A stretch of DNA of 32,899 bases from Pseudomonadota bacterium. GTDB taxonomy: Bacteria > Pseudomonadota > Alphaproteobacteria > Rhizobiales > Devosiaceae. Positions 7,167 through 22,282 of this stretch are shown one piece after another. A program made the position numbers and the translations under genes. Every line of letters starts with the position of its first letter. The stretch's first letter is position 1. The stretch is taken from assembly GCA_023427545.1 (NCBI GenBank), contig JAEZBF010000239.1, forward strand, positions 1 to 32,899. The letters run 5' to 3'. Below the pieces are notes generated by a model. It saw only the letters and a program-made list of their open reading frames with translations. It was not told the DNA's origin and searched no databases.

Positions 7167-8081
7167 TTACGCGGCGTCGGTCGGCTTGAGCCGGATTTCG
7201 ACACCCGACTGCGCCTCGAAGAGCCGCATCACCGAACCCATGAAATCTTCGTCGCGATATTTCTGCTCGCTCGTTTCGAGCAGGTCGAGAACCGCTTTGC
7301 CGACCGGCAGGTCGATGCCGAGATCGCGGGCGAGACCCATAGCAAGGCGATGGTCCTTGGCGGCCAACCGCGAGGCAAAGCCCGGCGAATAATCCGCTTT
7401 GAACGCCTTGGATGGCAGCACCATGTTGAGCACCTTGTTGGAGGTACCGGTCTTGTCGGAAAGCGCGATGATCTGCTCGAGCGACACCCCGGACTTGATC
7501 CCGAACGAGGCGCATTCGGCAATGATCGCGACCATGCCCGCCGCAAGGTAGTTGTTGACGAGCTTGATGGTCGTGCCGGCGCCCAAGTCGCCGATGTGCA
7601 TGATCTCGCTCGACATGGCCTCGAGCATCGGGCGCACGTCTTCGAGCGTTGCCTTGTCGCCCCCGACCATGAAGGTCACCGTCCCCTTTTCGGCGTCGGG
7701 CACACCGCGGCCCACCGGGCTGTCGAGCATCCTCACGCCCACCTTGGCGAGTTCGGCTCCGACATGGCGGCTGGTCGTGGGGTCGACCGTGCTGAGGTCG
7801 ACATAGATCAGCCCCTCATGCGCGCCGTCCCTGATCCCGCCCGCTTCGAGTGCAACGCGTCGCACGTCGGGCGCATCCGGCACCATCGTGAAGATGACGT
7901 CGACGTTGCGCGCGAGCTCGGCCGCGCTCGTTGCCGCCTTCGCGCCGCGCGCGACGAAAGCATCGATCGCCGGCTGGGCGACGTCCCACACCGTGAGGTC
8001 GAACCCCTTGCGCAGCAGGTTGCCGGCAAGTCCGCGGCCCATGGCTCCAAGGCCGATGAACCCAATCCGTTTCGCAGCCAC
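7167..8081 (-). CDS. Beta-hydroxyacid dehydrogenase family oxidoreductase (3-hydroxyisobutyrate / tartronate-semialdehyde reductase-like)
   Basis: N-terminal Rossmann motif RIGFIGLGAMGRGLAGNLLRKGFDLTVWD. About 300 aa. GTG start with GGAG 9 nt upstream, inside the end of the preceding gene. Confidence 0.85.
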   Translation of the reverse strand: MAAKRIGFIGLGAMGRGLAGNLLRKGFDLTVWDVAQPAIDAFVARGAKAATSAAELARNVDVIFTMVPDAPDVRRVALEAGGIRDGAHEGLIYVDLSTVDPTTSRHVGAELAKVGVRMLDSPVGRGVPDAEKGTVTFMVGGDKATLEDVRPMLEAMSSEIMHIGDLGAGTTIKLVNNYLAAGMVAIIAECASFGIKSGVSLEQIIALSDKTGTSNKVLNMVLPSKAFKADYSPGFASRLAAKDHRLAMGLARDLGIDLPVGKAVLDLLETSEQKYRDEDFMGSVMRLFEAQSGVEIRLKPTDAA

Positions 8082-8086: not shown

Positions 8087-8419
8087 CTACTCCTTGAGAG
8101 AAATGGTAAGCAGCGCCTTGAAGCTCGAGCCCTCGGGCAGGACCGTCATGACGCGGAGGAAAGTGCCGAAGTTGCTGATCCGTGCGCTCGAGACTTCATC
8201 GACGCGCGGCACCGGCATCATGCTGCCCTCGTCGATCCAGCGCATGCCGTCGGGCGAGATCTGCACCCAGGCGCGCGCCTGCTCCGGCGTTCCCTCGGCA
8301 CCAAGCGAGCGCAGGTAGATCACCGCCTCGCTCGCCCAGGCCACGTCGTACGGTTCGCTCGCTGCGACGCCGCTCCAGGTGTCGCCACGCGCGACGACGG
8401 CCGTAATGGACTCACGCAT
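8087..8419 (-). CDS. Hypothetical protein, small partner of the uncharacterised two-gene module (copy A)
   Basis: 110 aa with no signal peptide or TM segment. Its ATG overlaps the stop of the upstream gene by 8 nt (ATGCGTGA). It is a clear paralog of 17689-18027: shared AV(V/I)ARG..W...EPY...WA.EA.I, VQIS.DGMRWIDEG and AR...FG. The conserved MRWIDEG differs from the other copy by one synonymous change (GAC vs GAT). Confidence 0.8.
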   Translation of the reverse strand: MRESITAVVARGDTWSGVAASEPYDVAWASEAVIYLRSLGAEGTPEQARAWVQISPDGMRWIDEGSMMPVPRVDEVSSARISNFGTFLRVMTVLPEGSSFKALLTISLKE

Positions 8420-9293
8420 CTTCCCAGTCTCCCGAAACCAGCACCGAGTCGAGGTAGACGAACGACCGCTTGTTGGTATCGGCCTCCACGGTCCAGCACA
8501 CGTTGAACAAGCAGTTGAGGTTCGGCCACGCTTCCATGTGCATCGGCTCGAGCGTCGAGACGTCGAACTCGCGGTCGTTACACTGCAATGACGTGAAGCT
8601 CATCGAACGCAGGTCGAAGCCCATCTTGAAGTAGTGCCAATTATACTTGGTCGGTACCTCGTTGTAGCAGAGCTGCTGGTTGCCCCACGGGATGTCCTCC
8701 CAGCCGTCGGGGCCGAAGTGGTGGTGCGAGCGGGTCTCTCCCAGCGACTGGTCGCCCCCCACGTCGTGCGCCGTTTCGACCTTGCGCTTGAACTGCCACT
8801 TCTCCTGCCGCTCGCCGTTGAAGGCGTTGAGATAGCGCACGTGCGGCATGATGCGATGATTGTTGTCCTGCAGATCGAGCGCCAGGCCGAACGCCCCCGC
8901 ATCCTTTGCGGACAGCTTCAGGTCCGTCGCTTCCGGCTTCAACGCGAAATAGGTCTCGATCTGGATCGGGCACGCCTTGCGGAACGTGAAGCGCTTGAGC
9001 GCCATGTTCACCGAACGGGCGCGCGGCCGCGAAGCGATCTTGAGGGCATAGGTGCCGTCATGCGCCCCATGGGACCCGGTATCCCAGTGCGTGCCGTTCG
9101 ACAGCATGGGCTGGTTCATGTCCCGAAAGCCGGGCAGCACGTTGTCGAGCGTGTGCTCGTAGTTGCCGACCAACGCCGTGTAGCCGCGGAAGCCCTTCGA
9201 GAACTGGTCGAAGGCGATGATACGGGGCAGGGGGTTGAACTTCGAGAGTTCCGGATCCGTCCAGAACGCTCGATTGGCAGCAGTCGACACCAC
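8412..9293 (-). CDS. Hypothetical protein, large partner of the uncharacterised two-gene module (copy A)
   Basis: 293 aa with a GTG start preceded by GAGGAG. No signal peptide or TM segment. It is rich in aromatic residues and His. By eye roughly half its residues are identical to 16835-17689. Shared blocks: PLPRI, PMLSN.THWD.G.HG, YALK(I/L)A.RP, KPEAT.L.LS, NHR..P.VRYLNA.NGE...KWQ, CYNE.PTK.NWHYF..GFD, LQCND, PNL..LFNV and KR.F.Y.DS.L.SGDW. Confidence 0.85.
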   Translation of the reverse strand: MVSTAANRAFWTDPELSKFNPLPRIIAFDQFSKGFRGYTALVGNYEHTLDNVLPGFRDMNQPMLSNGTHWDTGSHGAHDGTYALKIASRPRARSVNMALKRFTFRKACPIQIETYFALKPEATDLKLSAKDAGAFGLALDLQDNNHRIMPHVRYLNAFNGERQEKWQFKRKVETAHDVGGDQSLGETRSHHHFGPDGWEDIPWGNQQLCYNEVPTKYNWHYFKMGFDLRSMSFTSLQCNDREFDVSTLEPMHMEAWPNLNCLFNVCWTVEADTNKRSFVYLDSVLVSGDWEDA

Positions 9294-9313
9294 GATCTCC
9301 TCATGCTGTAGCG

Positions 9314-9328
9314 TGTAGTTTCACTACA
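9314..9328. promoter_or_regulatory. Candidate operator palindrome TGTAG-N5-CTACA (site 1)
   Basis: TGTAGTTTCACTACA, which extends to 6-bp arms. It lies 21 nt upstream of the GTG start at 9293. An extra TGTAG half-site sits at 9307-9311. The same arms recur at 9460-9474. Confidence 0.35.
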
Positions 9329-9459
9329 TCAGTCCCCACCGGAGTCAACCGCCGAAATGAGGCCAATTTGCTCCGCCCACCGTGTGTTGCTGGCCCCACT
9401 CAAACGAAGCGCGCCCGAGGCTCACCGGACCTCGCCAAGGCGACAGATTGCCGGAATCC

Positions 9460-9474
9460 TGTAGTCAAGCTACA
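9460..9474. promoter_or_regulatory. Candidate operator palindrome TGTAG-N5-CTACA (site 2)
   Basis: TGTAGTCAAGCTACA, 9 nt upstream of the rpiR-family ATG at 9483. Confidence 0.35.
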
Positions 9475-9482: not shown

Positions 9483-10349
9483 ATGAGTACACGGGTTCAG
9501 GCCGCGCTGACTGCTGCCGCCGCCGCAATGCGTCCCTCCGAGCGGAAGGTGGCGGCGTTCGTTGCGAACGACCCGCAGGCGGCACTGCGCATGAGCATCT
9601 CGGCGCTCGCCGATGCGGCCGGCGTCAGCGAACCGACCGTCCTGCGGTTCTGCCGCGCCCTTGGCTACAAGGGCTTCATGGATTTCAAGATCAGCGTGGC
9701 GGGCGAACTGGGCGGCGGCACCCCGTTCGTTGACCACGATGTGGCGCCCGGCGATGACGGCAGGGCCGTGGTGGCCAAGCTCTTCGGCTCCTCGGTGCGT
9801 CAGATGACGCGCCTCATCGACACCCTCGACCACGAAGCGCTCGAGCGTGCCGTGGAGGTCATCACCAGCGCGAGCCGCATCGATGTCTGCGGCATCGCAC
9901 AGTCCAACTTCGTTGCGGCCGATCTCCAGCATCGCCTCGCCCGCATGGGGTACCCGGCGATCGCCATGCCGGACGTACACATGCAGTTGCAGGCGGCCGC
10001 CTCCCTCGGGCCGGGCGCCGTTGCGATCGTCATGTCCTTCGCCGGTCAGATCCGCGAAACCCTCGATGTCGCGAGGCAGGCGAGGAGCGTCGGCGCGACC
10101 GTGATCGCCATCACCCGCGGCCGTTCGGCGCTGGCGCGGGAAGCCGACATCGTCATCAATGTCGACAGCGACGAGGCGACGTTCCTCTATGGCTCCTCGG
10201 CAACCCGTTTCGCCCATCTGCTTGCCGTCGACCTGCTCGCCACCCTGATCGCGCTGCGTGGCGGCAAGCCGACTCTCGAGCGGCTCCGGCGCTCCCGACT
10301 CGCCACGCAGGATCGCTGGCTGCCTCAGTCGGACGACACCGGCACCTGA
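9483..10349 (+). CDS. MurR/RpiR-family transcriptional regulator (HTH + SIS sugar-phosphate-sensing domain)
   Basis: N-terminal HTH_6 block ERKVAAFV...ISALADAAGVSEPTVLRFCRALGYKGFMDFK. The SIS-like remainder has (V/I)xGxxxS-type motifs. It is divergent from the 9293 operon. Confidence 0.9.
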   Translation: MSTRVQAALTAAAAAMRPSERKVAAFVANDPQAALRMSISALADAAGVSEPTVLRFCRALGYKGFMDFKISVAGELGGGTPFVDHDVAPGDDGRAVVAKLFGSSVRQMTRLIDTLDHEALERAVEVITSASRIDVCGIAQSNFVAADLQHRLARMGYPAIAMPDVHMQLQAAASLGPGAVAIVMSFAGQIRETLDVARQARSVGATVIAITRGRSALAREADIVINVDSDEATFLYGSSATRFAHLLAVDLLATLIALRGGKPTLERLRRSRLATQDRWLPQSDDTGT

Positions 10350-10378: not shown

Positions 10379-11434
10379 TCAGGATTGCAGCTTTCGTCCA
10401 ATCCGCTCCAGCTCCTGGTCGAGAAGTGCCACCACGTCGTCGGACAGGTGCAACCCCTGACTTGCTGCCGCTGCCCGCCGTGCGTGAGCCCCCGGTCCGG
10501 GTAACCGCACAGGCGGCCCGCCGGCGGCCGGCCGCGACGCGCGCACCATCTCGCCGAGCTGCCGCGTGCGCGCCTCGTACTGCTCCAGCCCCATGAATGC
10601 CTTGGGATCGATGACCACGAACACGTGCCCGGCATCGGTGGGCTCCGGGCTCTTGTCGTTCGGGTTCCCCACCATGCGCCCTATGGCTGCGCCCGACAGC
10701 ACGCCGGCCAGCATCTCGACCATCAGCGCCAGGGCCGAGCCCTTGGCTCCGGCCATCGGCAGCAGCGCGCCCTTCATGCCCGCGGCCGGATCGGTAGTGG
10801 CGCTGCCGTCTGGCGCCACGGCCCAGTCCCCCGGGATTGACCGTCCCTCGCGCTGCGCCTGCCGCATCTTGCCGAACGCCGCAACGCTCGTTGCGATGTC
10901 AAACGCCACGGCATTCTCGGGCTCTTTCGCCGGAAAAGCCGCCGCGATCGGATTGGTGCCGAGGATCGGATCTGCACCGCCATGCACGGCCATCGCCGGC
11001 GAGCCGTTGGACGCGGTGAATGCGATGTACCCCGCGTCGGTCGCCCGCTGCAGCAGGTAGCCCGCCGCACCATAGTGGTTGCTGCGCCGCACTGCGGCGA
11101 TGGCGATCCCGGCCTCTGCCGCAGTCGCCATGGCGCGGTCGATCGCCACCGCACCCGCCACGACGCCCATGGCGTTGCCGCCATCGACCAGCAGCACGCC
11201 CGGCCGGGTCTGCTCCACCGCGATCTCCGGCCGCGCCGCGATCTTTCCCCGGCGCAGTGCATCGAGGTACATCGGCGCTCGCGAGACGCCGTGCGACGTT
11301 ACCCCCGACGCCTCTGCATCGGTCAGCCAGTCCGCGCAGAGCTCCGCATCCTCTCGCGGCAATCCCGCATCAACGAACAGCGCCACCAGGGCCTCGGCGA
11401 CAGCTGCAACGGGAAAACTGGCCATGTCTCGCAT
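10379..11434 (-). CDS. Ldh_2-family (malate/L-lactate/sulfolactate dehydrogenase type 2) oxidoreductase
   Basis: Family blocks GVTSHGVSRAPMYL, RRSNHYGAAGYL and ILGTNPIAAAFP. The start is the ATG at 11434 or the ATG at 11425. Confidence 0.85.
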   Translation of the reverse strand: MRDMASFPVAAVAEALVALFVDAGLPREDAELCADWLTDAEASGVTSHGVSRAPMYLDALRRGKIAARPEIAVEQTRPGVLLVDGGNAMGVVAGAVAIDRAMATAAEAGIAIAAVRRSNHYGAAGYLLQRATDAGYIAFTASNGSPAMAVHGGADPILGTNPIAAAFPAKEPENAVAFDIATSVAAFGKMRQAQREGRSIPGDWAVAPDGSATTDPAAGMKGALLPMAGAKGSALALMVEMLAGVLSGAAIGRMVGNPNDKSPEPTDAGHVFVVIDPKAFMGLEQYEARTRQLGEMVRASRPAAGGPPVRLPGPGAHARRAAAASQGLHLSDDVVALLDQELERIGRKLQS

Positions 11435-11543: not shown

Positions 11544-12362
11544 ATGGCCCGCGCCTCCGATCTGGAACTGCCGGAGACCGCTGATCAGAGCGACAGGCAG
11601 ACGCGCTACCGCGTCCCCGCCGTCGACAAGGCTCTGGACATCCTCGAGCTGCTCTCGACCGAGGCCACCGGCCTGCCAATGGCGACCCTGGCGGAGCGGC
11701 TGGGGCGCACCATCAGCGAAATCTACCGCACCGTTCAGCTGCTCGAAGCCCGCGGCTACCTCGAGCGTCACAACGACGGCGACCGCTATGCCGTGACCAT
11801 GAAGCTCTTCCGGCTGGCCCACGCCATGCCGCGCGTTCATTCGCTGACCTCGCATGCCATTCCCATCATGGAGGAGCTCGCCAATCAGATAGAGCAGTCC
11901 TGCCATCTCGCCGTGCTCGACGGCCAGGACATCCTCATCATCGCTCAGGTCGATTCCCCGCTGCCGCGCCAGTACTCCGTGGCCCTCGGCGCCCGCCTGC
12001 CGGTGTGGGAGGCGAGCTCGGCAAACCTGCTGCTCGCCTATCAGCCCGAAGCCAAGCGCGAGGCGCTGTTCCGCTCGCTTGCGCGCACCGTCACCCCCGA
12101 TGCGCTGCAGCAGCTGCGCCAGCGCGTCGCCGAGGTCGTCAGCACCGGCCGCGAGGACCGTGAGAGCTACGTTGTCAGCGGCCTGCTGACCTTCAGCCGC
12201 CCGATCTTCAACCACTTCGGCACCGTCGTCGCTGCCCTGACGGTTCCGTTCCTCCACCACAAGCGCCTCGCCGTCCCGCCGGAGGAGGCGAGCGCACGCC
12301 TCGACGCCGCGGCGCTGCACCTTTCCCGCGAGCTCGGCTACCGCGAGCCGAACGGCGGCTGA
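11544..12362 (+). CDS. IclR-family transcriptional regulator
   Basis: The winged-HTH block is VPAVDKALDILELLS...MATLAERLGRTISEIYRTVQLLEARGYLER. The C-terminal effector domain is about 180 aa. Confidence 0.9.
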   Translation: MARASDLELPETADQSDRQTRYRVPAVDKALDILELLSTEATGLPMATLAERLGRTISEIYRTVQLLEARGYLERHNDGDRYAVTMKLFRLAHAMPRVHSLTSHAIPIMEELANQIEQSCHLAVLDGQDILIIAQVDSPLPRQYSVALGARLPVWEASSANLLLAYQPEAKREALFRSLARTVTPDALQQLRQRVAEVVSTGREDRESYVVSGLLTFSRPIFNHFGTVVAALTVPFLHHKRLAVPPEEASARLDAAALHLSRELGYREPNGG

Positions 12363-12364: not shown

Positions 12365-13456
12365 TCAGCCCAGCCGGTTCTGCGTCTTGCTGTCGAAGAG
12401 ATGCAGCCGCGCCGCTTCGAAGTTCAGCGTCAGCGGCTGCCCGGCCTGGAACTGCCCCTTGTCCGTGCAGCGCGCGGTGACGATCGCCTCGCCCGCCTTG
12501 ACGGTCACGAGGATGTCGCTGCCGAGCGGCTCGAGCATGTCGATGACGCCGTCGATGTGACCCGCTGCGCCCGGCACCGGCACGTCGCTCAGGTGCTCGG
12601 GGCGTAGCCCCGCGAGCACATCGCCGCCGGCGGGAACCTGGGGCAGGGGCGTCCCTGCCGGCAGCACGATCCGCCCACCGCCGGCGAGCGAGAGGATGGG
12701 CCGGTCGCCGTCCATTCCTCGCGTCGCCGGCAGGATGTTCATCGTCGGCGAACCGATGAACTCCGCCACGAAGACATTGGCCGGCCGGTCGAACAGGTCG
12801 TGCGGCGTGCCCACCTGCGCGATGTGCCCGTCCAGCAGGCAGATGATCCGGTCCGCCAGCGTCATCGCCTCGAGTTGGTCGTGCGTTACGTACATGCTCG
12901 TTGTCTTGAGCGACTGGTGCAGCCGCTTGATCTGCCCGCGCATCTCAGCGCGCAGCTTGGCATCGAGGTTCGAGAGCGGTTCGTCGAAGAGGAAGAGCCG
13001 CGGCTTGCGGACCATGGCGCGGCCGATCGCGACGCGCTGGCGCTGGCCGCCCGAAAGCTCCCGCGGCCGCCGATGGAGAAGATGGCCGATCTGCAGGATG
13101 TCCGCGACCCGCTTGACCTGCGCCGCCCGCTCCTCCTTGGGCACCTTGGCGAGCTCGAGCGAGAAGCCGATGTTCTGCTCCACGCTCATGTGCGGATAGA
13201 GCGCGTAGTCCTGGAACACCATCGCGACCTGCCGCTCCTTGGGCGACAGTTCGTTGACGCGAACGGTCCCCATGCGCAGCTCGCCGCCCGAGATCTCCTC
13301 GAGGCCAGCGACCATGCGCAGGATCGTGCTCTTGCCGCAGCCCGACGGGCCGACGAGCACGAGGAACTCTCCCTCCTCGATGTCGAAGCTGATGTCGTGC
13401 ACGACCTCGAGATTGCCGTACCGCTTGACGAAGCGATCAACACTGATGGCGGCCAC
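12365..13456 (-). CDS. Sugar ABC transporter ATP-binding protein (MalK/UgpC/MsiK type)
   Basis: Walker A GPSGCGKST, signature LSGGQRQRVAIGRA, Walker B LFLFDEPLSNLD. It has a C-terminal MalK-type regulatory (TOBE-like) extension. Confidence 0.92.
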   Translation of the reverse strand: MAAISVDRFVKRYGNLEVVHDISFDIEEGEFLVLVGPSGCGKSTILRMVAGLEEISGGELRMGTVRVNELSPKERQVAMVFQDYALYPHMSVEQNIGFSLELAKVPKEERAAQVKRVADILQIGHLLHRRPRELSGGQRQRVAIGRAMVRKPRLFLFDEPLSNLDAKLRAEMRGQIKRLHQSLKTTSMYVTHDQLEAMTLADRIICLLDGHIAQVGTPHDLFDRPANVFVAEFIGSPTMNILPATRGMDGDRPILSLAGGGRIVLPAGTPLPQVPAGGDVLAGLRPEHLSDVPVPGAAGHIDGVIDMLEPLGSDILVTVKAGEAIVTARCTDKGQFQAGQPLTLNFEAARLHLFDSKTQNRLG

Positions 13457-13473
13457 GGGGATTTCCTTTCAAC

Positions 13474-14349
13474 TCAGCCCTTCACCGAACCGGCGGTGAG
13501 GCCGGCGATGAGGAATCTCTGGGCGAACATCACCAGCAGGGTGACGGGCAGGAGCTGCACCGTCACGCCGGCAAAGAGCACGCCGAAGTTGGTGCCGCTC
13601 ACCGAGTCCATCACTTCCGAAATGATGAGCGGTGCGGTCTTGGCATGCTGCGTCGTGAAGATCAGCGCGAACAGGTACTCGTTCCACGAGAAGATGAAGA
13701 CGAAGATGGCGCAGGCAGCGACGCCCTGCAGCGCCAGCGGAAAGATCACCCGGACCAGCGACTGCAGCGAGGTCGCGCCGTCGACGATCGCCGCTTCATC
13801 CAGCGTGCGGGGGATCTTGTCGATGAACGTCTTCATGATCATCGTGCACATCGAGACCCAGAAGGCGGCGTAGAGCACGATGAGCACGATGTGGGTGTCG
13901 CTGAGCTTGAGCGCATCGACGAGCGGAAACAGCGGCAGCGTCACCACGATGGGTGGCAGCAGTCGGATGGCGATCAGGTAGATCACCGATCCGGCTAGGA
14001 ACCGGCTGCTGTAGCGCGAATAGACGAACCCCGCGAGGATTGCCGCAATGCAGGCGAGCCCTGTCGCACCCGCGGCGATGATCAGGCTGTTGAGCAGCGT
14101 CGGGAAAAATCCGTCCCACTTGGTGACGAGCGCAACGTAGTGCTCCAGCGTCGGCGTGAAGATCACGCTGGGCGGGAACCGGAAGATTTCCTTCTGCGGC
14201 TTGAACGACGACACCACGATGTAAAGGATCGGGAACGCCGACCATACGATCAGCAGCGCGAACAGCGCCGTGCGAATGACGGCGCGGACCGCGCCGGCAG
14301 CGCGCCGCGCCGCCATGTTCGGAAGCTCGATGGGCGCAAGGTCAGTCAT
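13474..14349 (-). CDS. Carbohydrate ABC transporter permease (MalG-like)
   Basis: Six predicted TM stretches. EAA loop PRTLDEAAIVDGATSLQSLVRVIFPL. Paralog of 21455-22282. Confidence 0.9.
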   Translation of the reverse strand: MTDLAPIELPNMAARRAAGAVRAVIRTALFALLIVWSAFPILYIVVSSFKPQKEIFRFPPSVIFTPTLEHYVALVTKWDGFFPTLLNSLIIAAGATGLACIAAILAGFVYSRYSSRFLAGSVIYLIAIRLLPPIVVTLPLFPLVDALKLSDTHIVLIVLYAAFWVSMCTMIMKTFIDKIPRTLDEAAIVDGATSLQSLVRVIFPLALQGVAACAIFVFIFSWNEYLFALIFTTQHAKTAPLIISEVMDSVSGTNFGVLFAGVTVQLLPVTLLVMFAQRFLIAGLTAGSVKG

Positions 14350-15214
14350 TTCCCTTGAGCATCCTTCTGTGCATTGCCCAGAGGTAGACCGATGCGATCA
14401 GCAGCGAGCCGATGACCATCAGCCAGCCGGTCGCCGAGGCGGCGCCGAAATCCCCGCTGCGGAATGCGCTCTGGTAGAGGAACAGCGCCAGCACTTCCGT
14501 CAGCCGCGCCGGACCGCCGCCCGTCAGCAGGTAGACCTCCGAAAACAGGCGGAAGGCGAACACGAAGCGGAAGATCAGCGAGATCAGGATCGCCGGGATC
14601 GTGAGCGGCAGCGTGATGCGCCAGAATTCCTGCCAGCGCGTCGAGCCATCGATGCGCGCCGCTTCATACAGCGACTTCGGCACGGCCAGCATCCCTGCGT
14701 AGATGAGCAGGAAGGTGAACGGCAGGTGGTGCCAGATCGAGATCAGTGTTGTGATCCCCAGCGCCAGCGGCGGCGAGATCGTCCAGTTGATCATCCCCAG
14801 GCCCATGCTCTCGAAGGTGCGCGAAAGGACGCCGCTTCCTGGGGTGAGCATGATCTTCCAGATCAGCACGCCCACCACTTCTGAGATCGCGTAGGGCATC
14901 AGGATGATCGCGAACATCAGCTTGGGATAGCGAACGCCGCCCAGGAACAGGACGGCCATGCCGATCGCGATGAAGAGCTCGATGTAGACGATGGCGTTGA
15001 CCACGATGACCGTGTTGAGCGCCGCCCGCCAGAAATAGGGGCTGCTCAGGACGTCGGCATAGTTCTGCAAGCCGACGAAAGTCAGGTGCGAGCCGTAGGT
15101 GGACTCGTTGAGGCTGAGCCAGAACACATAGAGCGACGGCAGGGCGATCGCCGACAGCAGCAGGAAATGGGTCGGCACCAGCATGAGCAGGGCCGCCGGA
15201 TTGAGACGCCGCAT
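14342..15214 (-). CDS. Carbohydrate ABC transporter permease (MalF-like)
   Basis: EAA loop PKSLYEAARIDGSTRWQEFWRITLPL. It overlaps the downstream permease by 8 nt. Paralog of 22275-23141. Confidence 0.9.
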   Translation of the reverse strand: MRRLNPAALLMLVPTHFLLLSAIALPSLYVFWLSLNESTYGSHLTFVGLQNYADVLSSPYFWRAALNTVIVVNAIVYIELFIAIGMAVLFLGGVRYPKLMFAIILMPYAISEVVGVLIWKIMLTPGSGVLSRTFESMGLGMINWTISPPLALGITTLISIWHHLPFTFLLIYAGMLAVPKSLYEAARIDGSTRWQEFWRITLPLTIPAILISLIFRFVFAFRLFSEVYLLTGGGPARLTEVLALFLYQSAFRSGDFGAASATGWLMVIGSLLIASVYLWAMHRRMLKGND

Positions 15215-15285: not shown

Positions 15286-16551
15286 TTACTTCGACTTGGC
15301 GACCAGCGCCTCGGCGCGGGTCTGCAGGTCCTGGGCGGCCTGCTCCGGGGTCTTGAGGCCCAGCAGCGCCGAATGCATCTCCTCGAGGAAGATGGTCGTC
15401 GCTTCGACCGCACCGTCGAATGCCGGCACCGCGATGGAGGCATCGCGCAGGCCGGTGGCTTCGGCAGCCGCGTACGGGAGCTTCTCGACGATCCGCGGAT
15501 CCTCGTAGGCACCCGGACGCACCGGACCGTTGCCGTTCAACGCTGCGCGGACGGTGGCGTCCTTGCTCGACAGCTCGCGGATCAGGTCGAAGGCGAGTTC
15601 CTTCTGCTTGGAGTTGGCCGGAATGGCCCACGACCAGAACTCGGTGTTCGCCGCCGACTTGCCCGGCTCGTTGGTCGGATAGGGGATCGCGAGGATCTGG
15701 CCAGGGTACTGCGAGGCGGCCGGATCGTTCAGTGCGGTGTAGCGCGCGAACGGGTTGATCGCGAATGCACCGCGGCCTTCACGCATCGTGGCGATCAGCT
15801 GGTCGAGGCTGTAGGTCGTCGCGTTGGGCGGGATGACGCCTTCCTGGTGCAGCTTGGCCAGTTCGGTCAGGCCGGCGATCATCTCGGGCGAGTTCGCATG
15901 CACGCTCAGGTCGGGCGCGATGTAGGTCGCCCCGAACGCGCTGAGGAACTGCAGCGGCGTCACGTGCGTCTCGGCGGTGATGATCAGGCCGTTGACGCGG
16001 GTGCCGTCGTCACGGGTGAAGGTGGTGTCGCGGATCGCCTTGAGCAGCTCGTCCAGCGTGGTCGGAACGGCAACGCCGCGCTCTTCCAGGATCGCCTTGT
16101 TGTAGAGCAGGGCGTTCGTCGCGTGACGATAGGGGATGGCAACGCGCTTGCCGTCGATCACGGTCGCATCGAGCAGACCCTTCGAGATGCCCTCGAGGTC
16201 CTCGATCGGGTTGGCTGCATTCAGCGGGTCCAGCGGCTCGAGCAGGTTGGCGACGCTGGGAATGACGCGGGTGTTGAGCACCGCGGCCAGATCGATGCTG
16301 GTCTCGCCCAGGCTCATCTCGCGCAGCAGGCGATCGTGCAGCGGTCCGATGTCGAGCGTGATCCAGTTCAGGGTGACGTTGTTCTTCTTGGCCCACTCGC
16401 CGGCGATGTCCTGCGCAGTGGCGAGGTCGCCGCCGGTCGCGGCGGTCTTGTGCACGTTATGCGAAATGATGGTCAGGGTTCGCTGCTCCTGAGCAGCCGC
16501 GCTTCCCATCGCGGCCACCACGAAGGCGGCGGCCAGGAACTTCTTGAGCAT
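15286..16551 (-). CDS. Extracellular solute-binding protein, family 1 (sugar ABC transporter)
   Basis: Signal peptide MLKKFLAAAFVVAAMGSAAAQE. 421 aa. It is the first gene of the SBP-permease-permease-ATPase operon and a paralog of 23214-24467 (shared LHDRL.REM.LG, NGNG.VRP.AY.DPRIVEK). Confidence 0.9.
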   Translation of the reverse strand: MLKKFLAAAFVVAAMGSAAAQEQRTLTIISHNVHKTAATGGDLATAQDIAGEWAKKNNVTLNWITLDIGPLHDRLLREMSLGETSIDLAAVLNTRVIPSVANLLEPLDPLNAANPIEDLEGISKGLLDATVIDGKRVAIPYRHATNALLYNKAILEERGVAVPTTLDELLKAIRDTTFTRDDGTRVNGLIITAETHVTPLQFLSAFGATYIAPDLSVHANSPEMIAGLTELAKLHQEGVIPPNATTYSLDQLIATMREGRGAFAINPFARYTALNDPAASQYPGQILAIPYPTNEPGKSAANTEFWSWAIPANSKQKELAFDLIRELSSKDATVRAALNGNGPVRPGAYEDPRIVEKLPYAAAEATGLRDASIAVPAFDGAVEATTIFLEEMHSALLGLKTPEQAAQDLQTRAEALVAKSK

Positions 16552-16678
16552 AGCTTTTCCTCCTTACGCCACGACTTCTCGTTGAGCGAGGCGATTTTCA
16601 TATAGGATAACCGCTGTCACAGGTGTCAAGCGGAAGTTAACCCCGGCTGCGGCTTCGCAAGGGAAAACAAGGACCATT

Positions 16679-16714
16679 CGGTTAACGACCACGCATCGCA
16701 CTCTCGTTAAGCGG
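16679..16714. promoter_or_regulatory. Candidate operator: inverted repeat CGgTTAACGA-N15-TCGTTAAgCG
   Basis: TTAACGA (16682-16688) and TCGTTAA (16704-16710) are perfect complements, and 9 of 10 positions match when extended. It lies in the divergent intergenic region between the SBP gene and module copy B. A GTTAAC lies nearby at 16636-16641. Confidence 0.3.
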
Positions 16715-16727
16715 CGGTCTGTTAGCG

Positions 16728-16756
16728 TTGACACAGACGAAAGTTGCTTTTATCCG
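16728..16756 (+). promoter_or_regulatory. Candidate sigma-70-type promoter for the 16835 operon
   Basis: TTGACA (16728-16733), a 17-nt spacer, then TATCCG (16751-16756). It is about 80 nt upstream of the ATG. The -10 element is weak. Confidence 0.3.
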
Positions 16757-16834
16757 TGACTCATTAGTCCGCCACGAAGCTCGTCTTTGAGGCAGCGGAC
16801 CACCCCTTGGGACCAAAAGGCAGTCTTCCCTTTC

Positions 16835-17689
16835 ATGACCATCAGCACCGCTGTCGCGCCGCGACCTGATCTCAACCTCAGTCGCTTCGATCCGCTGCCG
16901 CGCATCATGTTCTACGACGACTTCAACAACGGCATGTCTGGGTGGAACGAGCTCCTCGGCAACTACACCGGCAGCCTGCGCAGGATGCACCCCGGCTACA
17001 GGCAGTTCACCCCGCCCATGCTGAGCAACATCACCCACTGGGATGGTGGCACGCACGGCGGGCTGACCGGCTCCTACGCGCTCAAGCTCGCAACGCGTCC
17101 CGGCCGCGGCTCACAGACCGTCAGCCTCAAGCGCATGACGTTCCCGCGTGCCTGCACGATGCAGCTCGAGTGCTTCTTCACCTTCAAGCCAGAAGCCACC
17201 GAGCTCGAGCTCTCCGACAGGGACGTGCGCTCCTGGGGCGTGGTCCTCGACATCCAGGACAAGAACCATCGCGTGCTGCCGCAGGTCCGCTACCTCAACG
17301 CGCTCAATGGCGAGCTGCAGAACAAGTGGCAGTACAAGGAAGAGAGCGTGAAGTTCAACGACGTGGGGGATCGGACCGTCACGATCTACCACTACGGCGA
17401 GGAGAACTGGAAGGATATCCCCGGCGGGCACCAGCTGATCTGCTACAACGAGATTCCGACCAAGATCAATTGGCACTATTTCCGCTTGGGCTTCGACGTC
17501 CATAAGCTGCGTTACACCGAGCTGCAGTGCAACGACCTGGTGCTCGACATCTCCGATCTTGGCACCCTCAAGTTCGACGCGATGCCGAACCTGCAGAACC
17601 TCTTCAACGTCATTCCGTTCGTCGACACCGACTCCGACAAGCGCGCCTTCCTCTACTTCGACTCCATTCTGCTGTCGGGAGACTGGTAA
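16835..17689 (+). CDS. Hypothetical protein, large partner of the uncharacterised two-gene module (copy B)
   Basis: The track ORF starts at a TTG (16787). The ATG at 16835 (MTISTAVAPRPDLNLSRFDPLPRI) aligns with the N-terminus of copy A. About 284 aa, ending ...SILLSGDW*. See 8412-9293 for the shared blocks. Confidence 0.85.
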   Translation: MTISTAVAPRPDLNLSRFDPLPRIMFYDDFNNGMSGWNELLGNYTGSLRRMHPGYRQFTPPMLSNITHWDGGTHGGLTGSYALKLATRPGRGSQTVSLKRMTFPRACTMQLECFFTFKPEATELELSDRDVRSWGVVLDIQDKNHRVLPQVRYLNALNGELQNKWQYKEESVKFNDVGDRTVTIYHYGEENWKDIPGGHQLICYNEIPTKINWHYFRLGFDVHKLRYTELQCNDLVLDISDLGTLKFDAMPNLQNLFNVIPFVDTDSDKRAFLYFDSILLSGDW

Positions 17690-18027
17690 TGCTGGCAGAA
17701 AGCTACACCGCCGTCATCGCGCGCGGCGAGGACTGGATCAACGGCTCCGCCACCGAGCCCTACGAGGCGAGCTGGGCACGCGAGGCGATCATCGTCGTGC
17801 GCACGCTCGAAACCGGCACGCTCGGCGGTGGCGCCAGGGCGCATGTGCAGATCTCGCTCGACGGCATGCGCTGGATCGATGAGGGCACGAGCCTCGAGAT
17901 CAAGCCCGAAGTGGACGGGCTCAGCATGGCGCGCCTCACCCATTTCGGACATTACATCCGCCTGCGCGCCGAAATGCCCCAAGGCATGACCGGCTACATG
18001 CTCGCGACCCTCCAGCTCAAGGCCTGA
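17689..18027 (+). CDS. Hypothetical protein, small partner of the uncharacterised two-gene module (copy B)
   Basis: 112 aa (MLAESYTAVIARGEDW...). The start ATG overlaps the upstream TAA by 1 nt (TAATG). The track ORF 17527-18027 has an N-terminal extension that overlaps the large gene out of frame. Paralog of 8087-8419. Confidence 0.8.
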   Translation: MLAESYTAVIARGEDWINGSATEPYEASWAREAIIVVRTLETGTLGGGARAHVQISLDGMRWIDEGTSLEIKPEVDGLSMARLTHFGHYIRLRAEMPQGMTGYMLATLQLKA

Positions 18028-18029
18028 AC

Positions 18030-19822
<1,793 letters not shown>

Positions 19823-20735: not shown

Positions 20736-21449
20736 CTAGGTGGCCGGGCTGTGCACGGCGAGGACTTCGAGCAGGTCGGTCAGCCGGCCAAGCACGTGGT
20801 CCGGCTTGGCCGCGAGCAGGGGACCCGTCAACTCGTCGACCTGGTGGGCCGCCCCCAGATAGGCCGCAACCCGCATCCCCGCCGCACGGCCCGCCTTGAG
20901 CCCGAAGAGGCTGTCCTCGACCACGAGGCACTGCGCGGGCGGTACACCCATCAGCTCGGCCGCCAGCAGGAACACGTCGGGTTGCGGTTTGGGCACCCCG
21001 ACATCGAGCGCCGATACGATCCGCGGTCCGAAATACGCCAGCAGCCCTGTTGAGCGCAGCATGTGGATCACGCGCTGCCGCGGCGAGTTGGAGACCATGC
21101 AGAACGGCACCGGCATCGCCGCGAGCACCTCGCGCGCATCCGGCACAGGGCGCAGGTCGGTGGCGCAACGCCGGTTGAACTCGCTTTCGATCGCGTCGAA
21201 TACCGCCGGTCCGATCTCGATGCCCGAGCGCGCTGAAAGATCGGCGATCAGCTGCGGATAGCGCACGCCGTTGTAGCGGACCGCCAGCTCCCGCGCGGTG
21301 CAGGCGATGCCCAGCGCCGAAAAGTTTCGCTGGCGCACGTCGTGCATCAGCTCTTCGCTCTCCAGCAGCGTGCCGTCGCAGTCGAACAGCACCAGCCGTA
21401 TCTCTTCGGCCTTGGGCTGGTGCGGCCAGATGCGGCCAGCCCCGTCCAT
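20736..21449 (-). CDS. HAD-superfamily hydrolase, subfamily IA (phosphatase / beta-phosphoglucomutase-like)
   Basis: 237 aa from the ATG at 21449. Motif I LFDCDGTLLESE, motif II MVSNS, motif III KPQPDVF, motif IV VVEDSLFGLKAGRAAG. The upstream 259 codons of track ORF 20736-22226 overlap the permease gene out of frame. Confidence 0.85.
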   Translation of the reverse strand: MDGAGRIWPHQPKAEEIRLVLFDCDGTLLESEELMHDVRQRNFSALGIACTARELAVRYNGVRYPQLIADLSARSGIEIGPAVFDAIESEFNRRCATDLRPVPDAREVLAAMPVPFCMVSNSPRQRVIHMLRSTGLLAYFGPRIVSALDVGVPKPQPDVFLLAAELMGVPPAQCLVVEDSLFGLKAGRAAGMRVAAYLGAAHQVDELTGPLLAAKPDHVLGRLTDLLEVLAVHSPAT

Positions 21450-21454
21450 GGCCG

Positions 21455-22282
21455 CTAACCCTTCACCGCGCCGGCCGTGAGACCGGCAACCAGGAACCGC
21501 TGCAACCCCAGCACCACCAGCACAATCGGCACCAGCTGGATCGTCGCTGCCGAAAACAGAATCCCGTAATTTGTGCCCGTCACCGAATCCATTAGCTCGC
21601 TGAGAATGAGCGGCGTCGTCTTGGCGTTCTGGATCGTGAAGATGAAGGCGTAGAGATACTCGTTCCAAGAGAACACGAAGACGAACACCGCGCAGGCGAC
21701 CATGCCCTGGATGGCGAGCGGCGCCACGACATAGCGCAGGATCTGCGCTTCGCTCGCGCCATCCACCGACGCGGACTCGTCGAGATCGCGCGGGATCTGG
21801 TCGATGAACTCCTTCATCACCAACACGTTCAGCGGCACCCAGAAGGTGGCGTAGAGCAGGATGAGGATCAGGTGCGTGTCGGCAAGCCCGAACTGGTTCA
21901 CCCATGGGAAAAGCGGAATGGTGACGACGAGCGGCGGCAGCAGGCGGATCGCCACGAGATAGAAGGCGGATGCCGAAAGCGCGTCGTTGCGGAAGCGCGA
22001 ATAGACGTAGCCCGCGCAGGCTCCCGCGAACACCGACAGCAGCGTCGCTAGGATCGAGATGGCGAGGCTGTTTCCGACGAACCGGAAGAAGTCGCCGTTC
22101 TGCGTCGCCAGCTCGATGTAGTTGTCGAGCGTCGGTTCGAACAGCAGCGGCGGTGGGAACATGAAGATGTCGCGCTGGAACTTGAACGAGTTCATCACGA
22201 CGTAGGCGACCGGAAAGACCGACCACACCACGATCAGCACGATGGCGATCGCCTTCAGGGCGCTGGAGACGGGCCTACTCAT
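21455..22282 (-). CDS. Carbohydrate ABC transporter permease (MalG-like), second system
   Basis: EAA loop PRDLDESASVDGASEAQILRYVVAPL. The C-terminal block FTIQNAKTTPLILSELMDSVTGTNYGILFSAATIQLVP...AGLTAGAVKG is nearly collinear with the 13474-14349 product. Confidence 0.9.
   Translation of the reverse strand: MSRPVSSALKAIAIVLIVVWSVFPVAYVVMNSFKFQRDIFMFPPPLLFEPTLDNYIELATQNGDFFRFVGNSLAISILATLLSVFAGACAGYVYSRFRNDALSASAFYLVAIRLLPPLVVTIPLFPWVNQFGLADTHLILILLYATFWVPLNVLVMKEFIDQIPRDLDESASVDGASEAQILRYVVAPLAIQGMVACAVFVFVFSWNEYLYAFIFTIQNAKTTPLILSELMDSVTGTNYGILFSAATIQLVPIVLVVLGLQRFLVAGLTAGAVKG

What the first reader, a model, noticed from the sequence alone, without database searches (positions are those of the whole stretch)
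16835..18027. Second, diverged copy of the two-gene module (copy B), leading an aldolase/aldo-keto-reductase operon
The large ORF (16835-17689) and small ORF (17689-18027) overlap by 1 nt (TAATG).

- **Similarity to copy A:** by eye the large proteins are roughly half identical and the small ones roughly 40-50% identical.
- **Shared blocks, large:** PMLSN.THWD.G.HG, NHR..P.VRYLNA.NGE...KWQ, CYNE.PTK.NWHYF..GFD, LQCND and KR.F.Y.DS.L.SGDW.
- **Shared blocks, small:** ARG..W, EPY...WA.EA.I and VQIS.DGMRWIDEG.
- **Selection:** conservation is at the protein level. The MRWIDEG codons differ by a synonymous GAC/GAT change, which is consistent with purifying selection on real genes rather than a recent DNA duplication.
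- **Candidate catalytic residues:** conserved His, Asp and Cys positions in the large protein (THWD.G.HG, CYNE, LQCND) could be metal or catalytic ligands.
- **Context:** copy B is followed directly by an HpcH-type aldolase (2-nt gap) and an AKR (overlapping TTGA). It is divergently transcribed from a sugar ABC transporter operon.

Two paralogous copies in one locus, each in first position, suggest substrate-specialised versions of one unknown activity.
Basis: partly seen in the sequence, partly recalled or inferred. Interest (0 to 1): 0.85.

Follow-up and report, generated by a model that had tools for sequence, protein, structure and literature searches.

The report
Conserved two-protein sugar-pathway module, function unknown
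The two overlapping genes are real, strongly conserved partners (a lectin-like DUF6772 protein and a small jelly-roll protein) found with sugar importers in many bacterial phyla, and they probably form an uncharacterised enzyme at the entry of a sugar-acid breakdown pathway.

Summary
16835-17689 (284 aa) and 17689-18027 (112 aa) overlap by 1 nt. They are paralogues of 9293..8412 and 8419..8087: 50% identity (E 3e-99) and 46% (E 2e-29).

- **Families:** the large protein is a full-length Pfam DUF6772. The small one is only a sub-threshold DUF6385 relative. No paper or solved structure covers either.
- **Folds:** AlphaFold gives a concanavalin-A-like beta-sandwich (pLDDT 90) and a CBM-like jelly roll (pLDDT 95). 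Both match known structures at fold level only.
- **Distribution and pairing:** at least 566 relatives occur in species genomes across many phyla. In 74 of 79 sampled loci the small gene is adjacent to the large one, usually with stop/start overlap.
- **Selection:** orthologue dN/dS is 0.05-0.15.
- **Phylogeny:** A-type and B-type pairs form separate clades with distinct neighbours. Both types are kept together in at least four genomes.
- **Context:** the commonest neighbours are CUT1 sugar ABC permeases (46 of 72 loci). Dehydrogenases, lactonases, enolase or UxuA dehydratases, aldolases and PhyH dioxygenases also recur. No glycoside hydrolase was seen.

My best reading (about 0.4) is a cytoplasmic two-subunit C-O-cleaving enzyme (eliminase, hydratase or hydrolase). 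It would act on the imported, probably acidic, sugar at the entry of an oxidative pathway. The chemistry is inferred, not shown.

The parts
16835..17689 (+). Large subunit B: DUF6772 protein, 284 aa, predicted concanavalin-A-like beta-sandwich, no signal peptide
   Evidence: PF20562 E 7e-112 over the full length. AF2 pLDDT 89.8. Foldseek matches lectin/glucanase folds at TM 0.3-0.44. dN/dS 0.05-0.12.
17689..18027 (+). Small subunit B: 112 aa jelly-roll protein, remote DUF6385 relative, 1-nt overlap with the large gene
   Evidence: PF19912 scores 16.9 bits against a cut-off of 26.8. 22 of 23 relatives hit it weakly. AF2 pLDDT 94.6. Foldseek matches CBM6/35, Ena pilins and phage jelly rolls. Adjacent to the large gene in 74 of 79 loci.
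18030..18824 (+). HpcH/HpaI class II pyruvate aldolase (2-keto-3-deoxy / 4-hydroxy-2-keto acid aldolase)
   Evidence: PF03328 E 3e-35. Best PDB match 6r62 hydroxyketoacid aldolase, 4e-60. GarL/RhmA/HpaI models hit below their cut-offs.
18821..19822 (+). Aldo-keto reductase, start overlapping the aldolase stop
   Evidence: PF00248 E 3e-72. Best PDB match perakine reductase, 2e-80.
15286..16551 (-). CUT1 solute-binding protein, first gene of the divergent ABC operon
   Evidence: SBP_bac_1/8. PDB relatives are MalE3, a sorbitol SBP and SmoF, all distant.
13474..15214 (-). Two CUT1 ABC permeases (14342-15214 and 13474-14349)
   Evidence: BPD_transp_1. This is the commonest neighbour family of DUF6772 pairs, 46 of 72 loci.
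12365..13456 (-). MalK-type ABC ATPase
   Evidence: ABC_tran + OB_MalK + TOBE_2.
11544..12362 (+). IclR-family regulator
   Evidence: HTH_IclR + IclR_C. IclR directly precedes the pair in the L029, L066 and L070 loci.
10379..11434 (-). Ldh_2-family 2-hydroxyacid/2-ketoacid oxidoreductase
   Evidence: PF02615 E 1e-108. Best PDB matches are L-sulfolactate dehydrogenase (4e-62) and ureidoglycolate dehydrogenase. Recurs next to A-type pairs.
9483..10349 (+). RpiR/HexR-like regulator, divergent from copy A
   Evidence: HTH_6 + SIS. HexR model E 2.5e-63, below cut-off. RpiR is upstream of every A-type pair.
9314..9474 (.). Two 15-bp palindromes TGTAG-N5-CTACA (9314-9328 and 9460-9474) in the RpiR / copy A intergenic region; candidate operators
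   Evidence: 2 matches against 0.02 expected; none elsewhere in the window.
8412..9293 (-). Large subunit A: paralogous DUF6772 protein, 293 aa
   Evidence: PF20562 E 1e-112. 50% identical to B. Falls in the A-type clade.
8087..8419 (-). Small subunit A, 110 aa, 8-nt overlap with large A
   Evidence: 46% identical to small B. Weak PF19912 hit.
7167..8081 (-). HIBADH-family beta-hydroxyacid dehydrogenase (tartronate-semialdehyde-reductase-like)
   Evidence: NAD_binding_2/11. 2-hydroxy-3-oxopropionate reductase model E 8e-68, below cut-off.
5724..7145 (-). NAD(P)-dependent aldehyde dehydrogenase, last gene of the copy A operon
   Evidence: PF00171 E 5e-140.
16679..16713 (.). Inverted repeat CGGTTAACGA-N15-TCGTTAAGCG in the divergent promoter region upstream of copy B
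   Evidence: Function not tested.

Best explanation
The two genes encode the subunits of one cytoplasmic hetero-oligomeric protein.

- The 284-aa subunit is a concanavalin-A-like beta-sandwich (DUF6772). The 112-aa subunit is a jelly roll.
- They are made in fixed ratio by translational coupling.
- The protein belongs to the carbohydrate catabolic island at 5724-19822. That island is fed by the divergent CUT1 ABC importer.

I infer that the complex is an enzyme that breaks a C-O bond of the imported, probably acidic, sugar derivative. The reaction would be either a beta-elimination/hydration made possible by oxidation by a neighbouring dehydrogenase, or a hydrolysis.

Its product would then enter an oxidative sugar-acid route:
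- In operon B, the HpcH aldolase would split a 2-keto-3-deoxy acid into pyruvate plus an aldehyde, and the AKR would handle the aldehyde.
- In operon A, the HIBADH-like reductase and the ALDH would handle the corresponding aldehyde.
- A-type and B-type pairs are old paralogues that work side by side in the same pathway.

Shown:
- Both genes are real and under purifying selection.
- Linkage of the two genes is near-obligate, with tight junctions.
- The predicted folds.
- The cytoplasmic N-termini.
- The neighbourhood statistics.

Inferred:
- Physical complex formation.
- Catalysis.
- The type of reaction.
- The acidic nature of the substrate.
For: **Real, conserved pair**
- Full-length DUF6772 match.
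- 990 relatives in the protein collection.
- At least 566 loci in species genomes, from Alpha- and Betaproteobacteria, Acidobacteriota, Caldilineaceae, Spirochaetota, Poribacteria and Firmicutes, plus Actinomycetota.
- The small gene is adjacent in 74 of 79 loci. The other 5 have a contig end at or within about 400 nt of the large gene.
- The junction is -10 to +2 nt in 59 of 62 scored loci.
- dN/dS is 0.05-0.15.
- Small subunits co-diverged with their large partners: L004 carries a 73%-A-like and a 98%-B-like small gene.

**Enzyme-like conservation**
- About 60 of 284 positions are at least 97% conserved in 119 sequences.
- They are rich in K/R (K84, K99, R100, K118, R146, R152, K210, R270) and in D/E/H/Q/Y.
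- The loop Q200-W213 is almost invariant.

**Carbohydrate-type folds**
- Lectin/glucanase sandwich for the large protein.
- CBM6/35-like jelly roll for the small protein.

**Entry-step position**
- CUT1 permeases lie within 8 kb in 46 of 72 loci.
- The recurring order is SBP-(PALP)-(enolase)-perm-perm-LARGE-small.
- Sphingomonads replace the ABC system with TonB receptor plus MFS.

**Oxidative sugar-acid partners**
- SDR, GFO/IDH/MocA, AKR, SMP30 lactonase, enolase or UxuA dehydratases, HpcH or DHDPS aldolases, ALDH and HIBADH recur.
- In Neorhizobium L003 the set SDR + SMP30 + HpcH + ABC lacks only a dehydratase or eliminase, and the pair sits in front of the aldolase.
- No glycoside hydrolase family was found among the neighbours.

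**Precedent**
- DUF1080 proteins are 3-keto-glucoside 1,2-lyases and hydratases that work with GFO oxidoreductases (bioRxiv 10.1101/2024.03.25.586180). That they have a ConA-like fold is from my own memory.
Against: - No biochemical or genetic datum exists for any member.
- Structural matches are fold-level only (TM at most 0.44). They are mostly non-catalytic lectins, and no lyase or DUF1080 structure is in the top 50.
- GH16 and PL7 signature motifs are absent.
- The missing step differs between loci. B-type loci lack a dehydratase, while the Rhizobium Q54 and Chelatococcus loci have an enolase but no aldolase. So the 'gap-filling' argument does not point to one reaction.
- The very high conservation across phyla, with variable downstream enzymes, would also fit an enzyme acting on one common small molecule.
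- The complex itself was not modelled.
- The neighbourhood census rests on 79 loci and on my own ORF calling.
Confidence: 0.4

Rival explanations
1. The pair is an isomerase-type enzyme that breaks no bond. It could be a mutarotase, a pyranose-furanose or lactone isomerase, or an epimerase. It would deliver the imported sugar in the form needed by the anomer-specific dehydrogenase of the oxidative pathway.
For: - The position immediately after the permease genes is where the mutarotase genes rbsD, fucU and rhaM/rhaU sit in other sugar ABC operons (established knowledge).
- The most constant enzymatic partners are a transporter plus a sugar dehydrogenase (SDR, GFO or AKR), with or without a lactonase.
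- Very high conservation across phyla fits a simple common substrate.
- Loci without any glycosidase are expected if the substrate is a monosaccharide or polyol.
Against: - Known mutarotases are small single-chain proteins with few conserved residues. Here two subunits of about 400 aa in total carry about 60 invariant positions.
- Two diverged paralogous pairs around one transporter are hard to explain for a mutarotase.
- CUT1 systems and TonB receptors usually import oligosaccharides or glycosides (established knowledge).
Confidence: 0.2
2. The pair removes a sulfonate or amino substituent (C-S or C-N lyase) from a sulfo- or amino-sugar acid. The island would then be a sulfoglycolysis-like or amino-sugar-acid pathway.
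For: - The Ldh_2 protein's best PDB relative is L-sulfolactate dehydrogenase, 4e-62.
- The HIBADH protein hits the sulfolactaldehyde reductase model at 5e-60.
- The SBP is distantly related to the sulfoquinovosyl-glycerol binder SmoF.
- The PLP enzyme that recurs in 12 loci scores best with cysteate sulfo-lyase CuyA and XcbE.
- AstE-like deacylases and PIG-L deacetylases occur nearby.
Against: - All these matches are far below the curated cut-offs, and other functions score equally well: ureidoglycolate dehydrogenase, tartronate semialdehyde reductase, D-cysteine desulfhydrase.
- No sulfoquinovosidase was found among neighbours. No sulfite exporter or sulfite dehydrogenase was recognised either, though only the 25 most frequent families of the census were visible and transporters were not screened for these functions.
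- The PLP enzyme is absent from the window and from all A-type and B-type loci.
Confidence: 0.1
3. The pair is not an enzyme. It would be a cytoplasmic lectin-like binding, sensing or scaffolding complex that captures the imported sugar or modulates the transporter or regulator.
For: - The best structural matches are non-catalytic lectins and carbohydrate-binding modules.
- The strongest genomic association is with transporters rather than with any one enzyme.
Against: - In Sphingomonads the pair occurs with MFS/TonB systems, and in Acidobacteriota and Poribacteria without an adjacent transporter. So it is not an ABC accessory.
- The density of invariant charged and polar residues and an invariant loop are typical of active sites.
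- It is embedded inside enzyme operons with overlapping stop/start codons.
Confidence: 0.1
4. The ORFs are chance open frames in GC-rich DNA, and the similarity to copy A is a DNA-level duplication remnant.
For: The window is 65.6% G+C and full of long spurious ORFs.
Against: - Codon-position GC pattern is typical of genes, with GC3 0.87.
- Pfam match at E 1e-112.
- Hundreds of homologues.
- dN/dS 0.05-0.15.
- Confident fold predictions.
Confidence: 0.01

Closest known systems
[quoted passage not shown]
   Same: - Lectin/glucanase-type beta-sandwich used as an enzyme (the DUF1080 fold is from my own knowledge).
- Works in sugar catabolic clusters next to GFO/IDH/MocA oxidoreductases and xylose-isomerase-like TIM barrels. 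Both recur near DUF6772 pairs.
- No classical glycosidase in the cluster.
   Different: - No detectable sequence relationship.
- Not among the top 50 structural matches.
- DUF1080 enzymes are single proteins, whereas DUF6772 is nearly always found with a small partner gene.
- GFO and TIM neighbours are present in only a minority of DUF6772 loci and are absent from this window.
Two-subunit C-glycoside deglycosidases (CarB/CarC, DgpC/DgpB)
   Same: - A large and a roughly 110-130 aa small subunit are encoded side by side in sugar catabolic loci with oxidoreductases and ABC importers.
- The small subunit has no activity of its own (my own knowledge of the family).
   Different: - Their large subunit is a metal-dependent xylose-isomerase-like TIM barrel. 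Here it is a beta-sandwich.
- Their small subunit belongs to a different family.
Beta-jelly-roll carbohydrate-active enzymes (GH16 glucanases; PL7/PL13/PL18/PL20 lyases)
   Same: - Same general fold class. GH16 O-glycanases appear in the Foldseek list at TM about 0.4.
- The lyases use Arg/Gln/His/Tyr on uronate substrates, and such residues are invariant here.
- Uronate-pathway genes (UxuA/UxuB, GarL-like, GarR-like) are neighbours.
   Different: - The GH16 ExDxxE motif and the PL7 signature blocks are absent from the sequence (read directly; motifs recalled from memory).
- Those enzymes are single-chain and mostly secreted.
- No PL structure is in the top 50 matches.
L-type lectins (Emp46p/Emp47p, VIP36, legume lectins) and TtX122 domains
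   Same: Best structural matches of the large subunit: Foldseek E 6e-6 to 1e-4, probability 1.0.
   Different: - TM only 0.3-0.44 and 9-14% identity.
- These are non-catalytic and extracytoplasmic.
- They lack a partner subunit and have no link to catabolic operons.

Membership tests
Pfam DUF6772 (PF20562) | Whole-protein score above the gathering cut-off (27 bits) with a full-length match | tested here: met
   Large B scores 373.7 bits over profile 7-284 of 284. Large A scores 376.1 bits.
Pfam DUF6385 (PF19912) | Score above the gathering cut-off (26.8 bits) | tested here: not met
   Small B scores 16.9 bits and small A 16.3 bits. 22 of 23 relatives give weak hits, best E 2.6e-5, and two relatives carry the precomputed annotation. 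This is a remote relative, not a member by the curated rule.
Concanavalin-A-like lectin/glucanase fold | Two curved antiparallel sheets forming a beta-sandwich, with structural similarity to known members | tested here: inconclusive
   The model is all-beta with pLDDT 89.8. Foldseek probability is 1.0 to lectins, GH16 and calreticulin, but TM is only 0.3-0.44.
GH16 glycoside hydrolases | Catalytic ExDxxE motif on one strand (from memory) | tested here: not met
   No E-x-D-x-x-E in the 284-aa sequence. No Pfam GH16 hit at E up to 0.1.
PL7-type beta-jelly-roll lyases | Signature blocks R(S/T)E(L/V)R, Q(I/V)H and YFKAG(V/I)YNQ (from memory) | tested here: not met
   None of the blocks is present in the sequence. 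No Pfam hit. No PL structure in the top 50 fold matches.
DUF1080 3-keto-glycoside lyase/hydratase (PF06439) | Sequence match to PF06439 | tested here: not met
   Only PF20562 is reported at E up to 0.1.
DUF1080 3-keto-glycoside lyase/hydratase (PF06439) | Lyase or hydratase activity on 3-keto sugars produced by a partner oxidoreductase | not testable with these tools
   Needs enzymology. GFO oxidoreductases lie within 8 kb in 12 of 72 loci.
Two-subunit C-glycoside deglycosidase (CarBC/DgpBC) | Large subunit is a xylose-isomerase-like TIM barrel (PF01261) | tested here: not met
   The large subunit is a beta-sandwich with no PF01261 hit.
Heteromeric complex of large and small subunit | Physical interaction of the two gene products | not testable with these tools
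   Indirect support only: adjacency in 74 of 79 loci, a tight or overlapping gene junction, and co-divergence. No co-folding tool was available.

The most novel reading that the evidence does not exclude
DUF6772 plus its small partner would be a previously unrecognised, phylum-spanning family of two-subunit C-O lyases or glycoside-cleaving enzymes.

- The enzyme would be built from a lectin-like sandwich and a CBM-like jelly roll, with an active site at the subunit interface.
- It would take the place of classical glycosidases or dehydratases at the entry of oxidative acidic-sugar pathways.
- The A and B paralogues would act on two bonds of one imported substrate.
Probability: 0.3. Interest if true: 0.75.

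Novelty: new variant of a known kind. Interest (0 to 1): 0.6.

Why it matters
- **Scale:** the family has hundreds of members in soil, marine, sponge-associated and freshwater bacteria. It sits in sugar-uptake operons, yet it has no known function, no solved structure and no literature.
- **If it is an enzyme:** it would fill a step now missing from reconstructions of oxidative sugar and uronate catabolism. It would also add a new catalytic use of the lectin fold.
- **What this analysis adds:**
  - It shows that the large protein is almost always encoded next to a small partner that Pfam does not recognise above threshold.
  - It defines A-type and B-type clades.
  - It names culturable carriers and the transporter whose ligand would reveal the substrate.
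  - Together these make the question directly testable.

Tried and rejected
- **Literature:** searches for DUF6772, DUF6385, PF20562 and PF19912 found nothing relevant.
- **PDB by sequence, large protein:** neither the single sequence nor the 42-sequence profile gave a hit.
- **PDB by sequence, small protein:** it weakly matched designed Symfoil beta-trefoils (E 1e-4). I rejected this because the confident model is a seven-strand jelly roll, not a trefoil.
- **NCBIfam:** no model for either protein.
- **Nucleotide search of plasmids:** only the AKR matched.
- **Fusions:** the profile search of 1.84 billion representatives with the small subunit found 292 relatives. Almost all are about 110 aa and stand-alone, so no informative fusion exists.
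- **SBP ligand inference:** the closest relatives (maltose, sorbitol, SQ-glycerol binders) are too distant to use.
- **A-versus-B dN/dS:** rejected as a measure because synonymous sites are saturated.
- **'ABC-transporter accessory' idea:** weakened by the MFS/TonB contexts.
- **'Missing dehydratase' idea:** fits B-type loci but not enolase-containing loci.
- **Residue mapping:** the invariant residues could not be mapped on the model because coordinates are not exposed.
Full report
**1. The observation**

The window is 65.6% G+C and full of long spurious ORFs. The two frames in question have the codon-position GC pattern of real genes; GC3 of the large ORF is 0.87.

- The large ORF runs from ATG 16835 to TAA 17689 (284 aa).
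- The small ORF runs from ATG 17689 to TGA 18027 (112 aa).
- They share one base (TAATG).

A tblastn of both proteins against the window finds exactly one other match each:

| Query | Match | Identity | E-value |
|---|---|---|---|
| Large B | 9296..8424 (-) | 50% | 3e-99 |
| Small B | 8419..8093 (-) | 46% | 2e-29 |

The GMRWIDEG codons differ only by GAT/GAC. The stated context is also correct:

- The HpcH aldolase follows after a 2-nt gap.
- The AKR start overlaps the aldolase stop.
- A CUT1 ABC operon is divergent.

**2. What the proteins are**

- **Large proteins.** Both are full-length members of Pfam DUF6772 (E about 1e-112).
- **Small proteins.** Both give only sub-threshold hits to DUF6385: 16-17 bits against a cut-off of 26.8. 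This weak hit recurs in 22 of 23 relatives.
- **Other libraries and literature.**
  - NCBIfam has no model for either protein.
  - No paper mentions either family.
  - PDB sequence searches find nothing for the large protein.
- **Localisation.** Neither N-terminus looks like a signal peptide, so both proteins should be cytoplasmic.
- **Large-subunit fold.**
  - AlphaFold2 predicts an all-beta sandwich (pLDDT 89.8).
  - The best PDB matches are L-type lectins, TtX122 domains, calreticulin and GH16 enzymes. TM-scores are only 0.3-0.44.
- **Small-subunit fold.**
  - AlphaFold2 predicts a seven-strand jelly roll (pLDDT 94.6).
  - It resembles CBM6/CBM35 modules, Ena pilins and phage jelly rolls, with TM at most 0.65.

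Both are carbohydrate-binding-type folds without a close characterised relative.

**3. A near-obligate, selected pair**

The family is large and widespread:

- 990 relatives of the large protein are in the protein collection.
- At least 566 loci occur in species-level genomes.
- They span Alpha- and Betaproteobacteria, Acidobacteriota, Caldilineaceae, Spirochaetota, Poribacteria and Firmicutes. A 37%-identical copy in Nonomuraea also has a small partner gene.

The two genes stay together:

- In 74 of 79 fetched loci a small-subunit gene is adjacent to the large gene.
- In 72 of them it lies directly downstream. In two (L030, L062) it lies upstream.
- The other five have a contig end at or within about 400 nt of the large gene.
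- The junction is -10 to +2 nt in 59 of 62 scored loci. The sequences are of the TGATG, TAATG and TAGCGATG types. This is the signature of translational coupling.

The small family has 292 representatives at 50% clustering. Nearly all are stand-alone and about 110 aa long.

Purifying selection is strong, with dN/dS of 0.05-0.15 for both genes of both copies against orthologues. The A-versus-B comparison is saturated at synonymous sites.

Conservation is dense:

- About 60 positions of the large protein are at least 97% conserved in 119 sequences.
- These include many Lys and Arg residues.
- The loop Q200-x2-CYNEIPTK-x-NW is almost invariant.

**4. A-type and B-type**

A neighbour-joining tree separates two clades.

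| Clade | Members | Typical neighbours |
|---|---|---|
| B | Window B, L001, L002, L003, L006, second copies of L004 and L005 | HpcH+AKR or UxuB/UxuA downstream |
| A | Window A, the truncated upstream copy of L001, L022, first copies of L004 and L005 | RpiR upstream, HIBADH with or without ALDH downstream |

Both types are kept together in several genomes:

- The Hyphomicrobiales genome L001 has the same two-copy layout as the window.
- In Mesorhizobium sp. Z1-4 and Cucumibacter marinus both pairs lie in one co-directional cluster around a single ABC transporter. The order is RpiR< A a HIBADH SBP perm perm ALDH SDR ATPase B b ... UxuB UxuA.
- The small subunits co-diverged with their large partners.

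So the whole two-gene module was duplicated long ago, and both copies are retained together.

**5. Genomic context**

I clustered my own ORF calls from the 79 loci and named the clusters with Pfam and NCBIfam. Counts are loci with a family member within 8 kb of the large gene, out of 72.

| Neighbour family | Loci |
|---|---|
| CUT1 ABC permeases | 46 |
| CUT1 SBP | 40 |
| Enolase-superfamily proteins | 20 |
| PhyH dioxygenases | 19 |
| Opp-type ABC (in Caldilineaceae) | 15 |
| GFO/IDH/MocA oxidoreductases | 12 |
| PLP enzymes of the D-cysteine desulfhydrase family | 12 |
| SDRs | 10 |
| AstE-like deacylases | 9 |
| Amidohydro_2 | 8 |

- **Recurring gene order.** The usual order is SBP-(PLP enzyme)-(enolase)-permease-permease-LARGE-small.
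- **Rarer neighbours.** These include HpcH and DHDPS aldolases, ALDH, HIBADH, SMP30 lactonases, UxuA/UxuB, xylose-isomerase-like TIM barrels and myo-inositol oxygenase.
- **Compact annotated examples:**
  - Chelatococcus pTAD1: GntR< enolase perm perm DUF6772 hyp SDR.
  - Rhizobium sp. Q54: FadR SDR SMP30 SBP perm perm ATPase <> enolase DUF6772 hyp.
  - Neorhizobium L003: ATPase perm SBP SDR <> DUF6772 small HpcH SMP30.
  - Sphingomonas sp. Leaf9: UxuA< TonB-receptor< IclR> DUF6772 small SMP30 MFS SDR TonB-receptor ... GPH-type MFS.
- **No glycoside hydrolase.** None was seen among the named clusters. None appeared among the 25 most frequent Pfam families of 115 further neighbours, which is all the tool lists.

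**6. The window's island**

Genes 5724-19822 read, in order:

- ALDH, HIBADH-like reductase, small A and large A (minus strand)
- RpiR (plus strand)
- Ldh_2 (minus strand)
- IclR (plus strand)
- ABC ATPase, two permeases and SBP (minus strand)
- large B, small B, HpcH aldolase and AKR (plus strand)

Closest characterised relatives, all below curated cut-offs:

- **HpcH protein.**
  - It is closest to a promiscuous hydroxyketoacid aldolase (6r62, 4e-60).
  - It is also related to the GarL, RhmA and HpaI models.
- **HIBADH protein.** It scores best with tartronate semialdehyde reductase.
- **Ldh_2 protein.** Its closest relatives are sulfolactate and ureidoglycolate dehydrogenases.

Two 15-bp palindromes, TGTAG-N5-CTACA, occur only in the RpiR / copy A intergenic region (2 found, 0.02 expected). 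They are likely RpiR operators. An inverted repeat lies in the copy B promoter region.

**7. Interpretation**

Shown:
- A real, ancient, co-inherited and translationally coupled two-protein module.
- Cytoplasmic N-termini and carbohydrate-type folds.
- Embedding in sugar and sugar-acid uptake and catabolism loci.

Inferred:
- The two proteins form a complex and are catalytic.

The constant partners are a transporter and a sugar dehydrogenase, while the lower pathway varies. This places the pair at or next to the entry step. My preferred reading (about 0.4) is a C-O-cleaving enzyme acting on the imported, probably acidic, sugar derivative. The reaction could be one of two kinds:

- A beta-elimination or hydration of a carbonyl-activated intermediate. 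DUF1080 proteins do this on 3-keto-glucosides (bioRxiv 10.1101/2024.03.25.586180). That DUF1080 has a lectin-like fold is my own recollection.
- A hydrolysis.

The product would feed the HpcH aldolase in operon B and the reductase plus ALDH in operon A. Support comes from three points:

- The many invariant Lys and Arg residues.
- The uronate and aldarate-type neighbours: UxuA/UxuB, GarL-like, GarR-like, and an enolase whose PDB relatives include the Bordetella 3ozm entry and 4ggb/4hpn. I recall 3ozm being solved with xylarate and lyxarate, and 4ggb as the Agrobacterium galactarolactone cycloisomerase.
- The absence of any classical glycosidase nearby.

Points against this reading:
- The step that appears to be missing is not the same in all loci.
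- The best fold matches are non-catalytic lectins.

Rivals:
- An isomerase or mutarotase-type enzyme (0.2).
- A C-S or C-N lyase in a sulfo- or amino-sugar-acid route (0.1). This is suggested only by sub-threshold similarities.
- A non-catalytic binding complex (0.1).
- Spurious ORFs (excluded).

**8. Novelty and verdict**

- **What is known.** The large protein belongs to a catalogued family that is entirely uncharacterised.
- **What appears undescribed.** As far as my searches show, three things are new: the near-universal small partner, the A/B split and the transporter linkage.
- **Novelty rating.** I rate it a new variant of a known kind, namely lectin-fold proteins in sugar catabolic operons.
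- **Interest.** I score it about 0.6. The chemistry is unknown, but it can now be tested directly.

Noticed in passing
window 9314-9328 and 9460-9474: Two 15-bp palindromes, TGTAGTTTCACTACA and TGTAGTCAAGCTACA, flank the divergent RpiR / copy A promoter region and occur nowhere else in the window (0.02 expected). They resemble HexR/RpiR operators.
   Followed up: partly
window 15241-15270 (- strand): A strong 13-bp GC-rich stem-loop followed by a T-rich tail lies between the SBP gene and the first permease gene. It could be a partial terminator or RNA stabiliser that raises SBP expression relative to the permeases.
   Followed up: no
window 20739-21443 (- strand): A HAD-family hydrolase gene (PF00702, E 4e-25) is hidden inside the mechanical ORF 20736..22226, whose upstream half is an out-of-frame overlap with the permease gene. 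The order EEP-HAD-perm-perm-SBP-LacI is syntenic with locus L006.
   Followed up: yes
window 12362-12365 compared with L001 and L002: The closest relatives carry a GFO/IDH/MocA oxidoreductase gene between the IclR gene and the ABC ATPase gene. In the window these two genes abut, with a 2-nt gap, so that oxidoreductase is missing here.
   Followed up: partly
window 25905-27347: A PF12831 FAD-dependent oxidoreductase sits in the neighbouring LacI-controlled sugar locus. The same family recurs next to DUF6772 pairs in Spirochaetota loci L020 and L023 and in L015, and three more were found in the neighbour census.
   Followed up: no
L051:7633-9159 and tandem copies in L031, L034, L064, L065, L076-L079: A roughly 508-aa protein family with no Pfam match (cluster c6: 33 copies in 16 loci by clustering, 36 by profile search) lies in tandem arrays beside DUF6772 pairs in Caldilineaceae.
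   Followed up: partly
L020:10001-14028: A Spirochaetota genome carries two DUF6772/small pairs in convergent orientation about 1.5 kb apart. This is an independent case of module duplication.
   Followed up: no
L011-L014, L017, L018, L021, L041, L043, L050: The PLP enzyme placed between the SBP and permease genes in many Alpha- and Betaproteobacterial loci scores best with cysteate sulfo-lyase CuyA and CoM-biosynthesis XcbE models (about 245 bits, cut-off 450). This hints at a sulfonated or aminated substrate in those lineages.
   Followed up: partly
window 3073-4722: An ACP-like gene and a beta-ketoacyl synthase gene lie next to a WecG-type glycosyltransferase (4739-5575, - strand). This is a small lipid or polysaccharide-modification cluster unrelated to the finding.
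   Followed up: no
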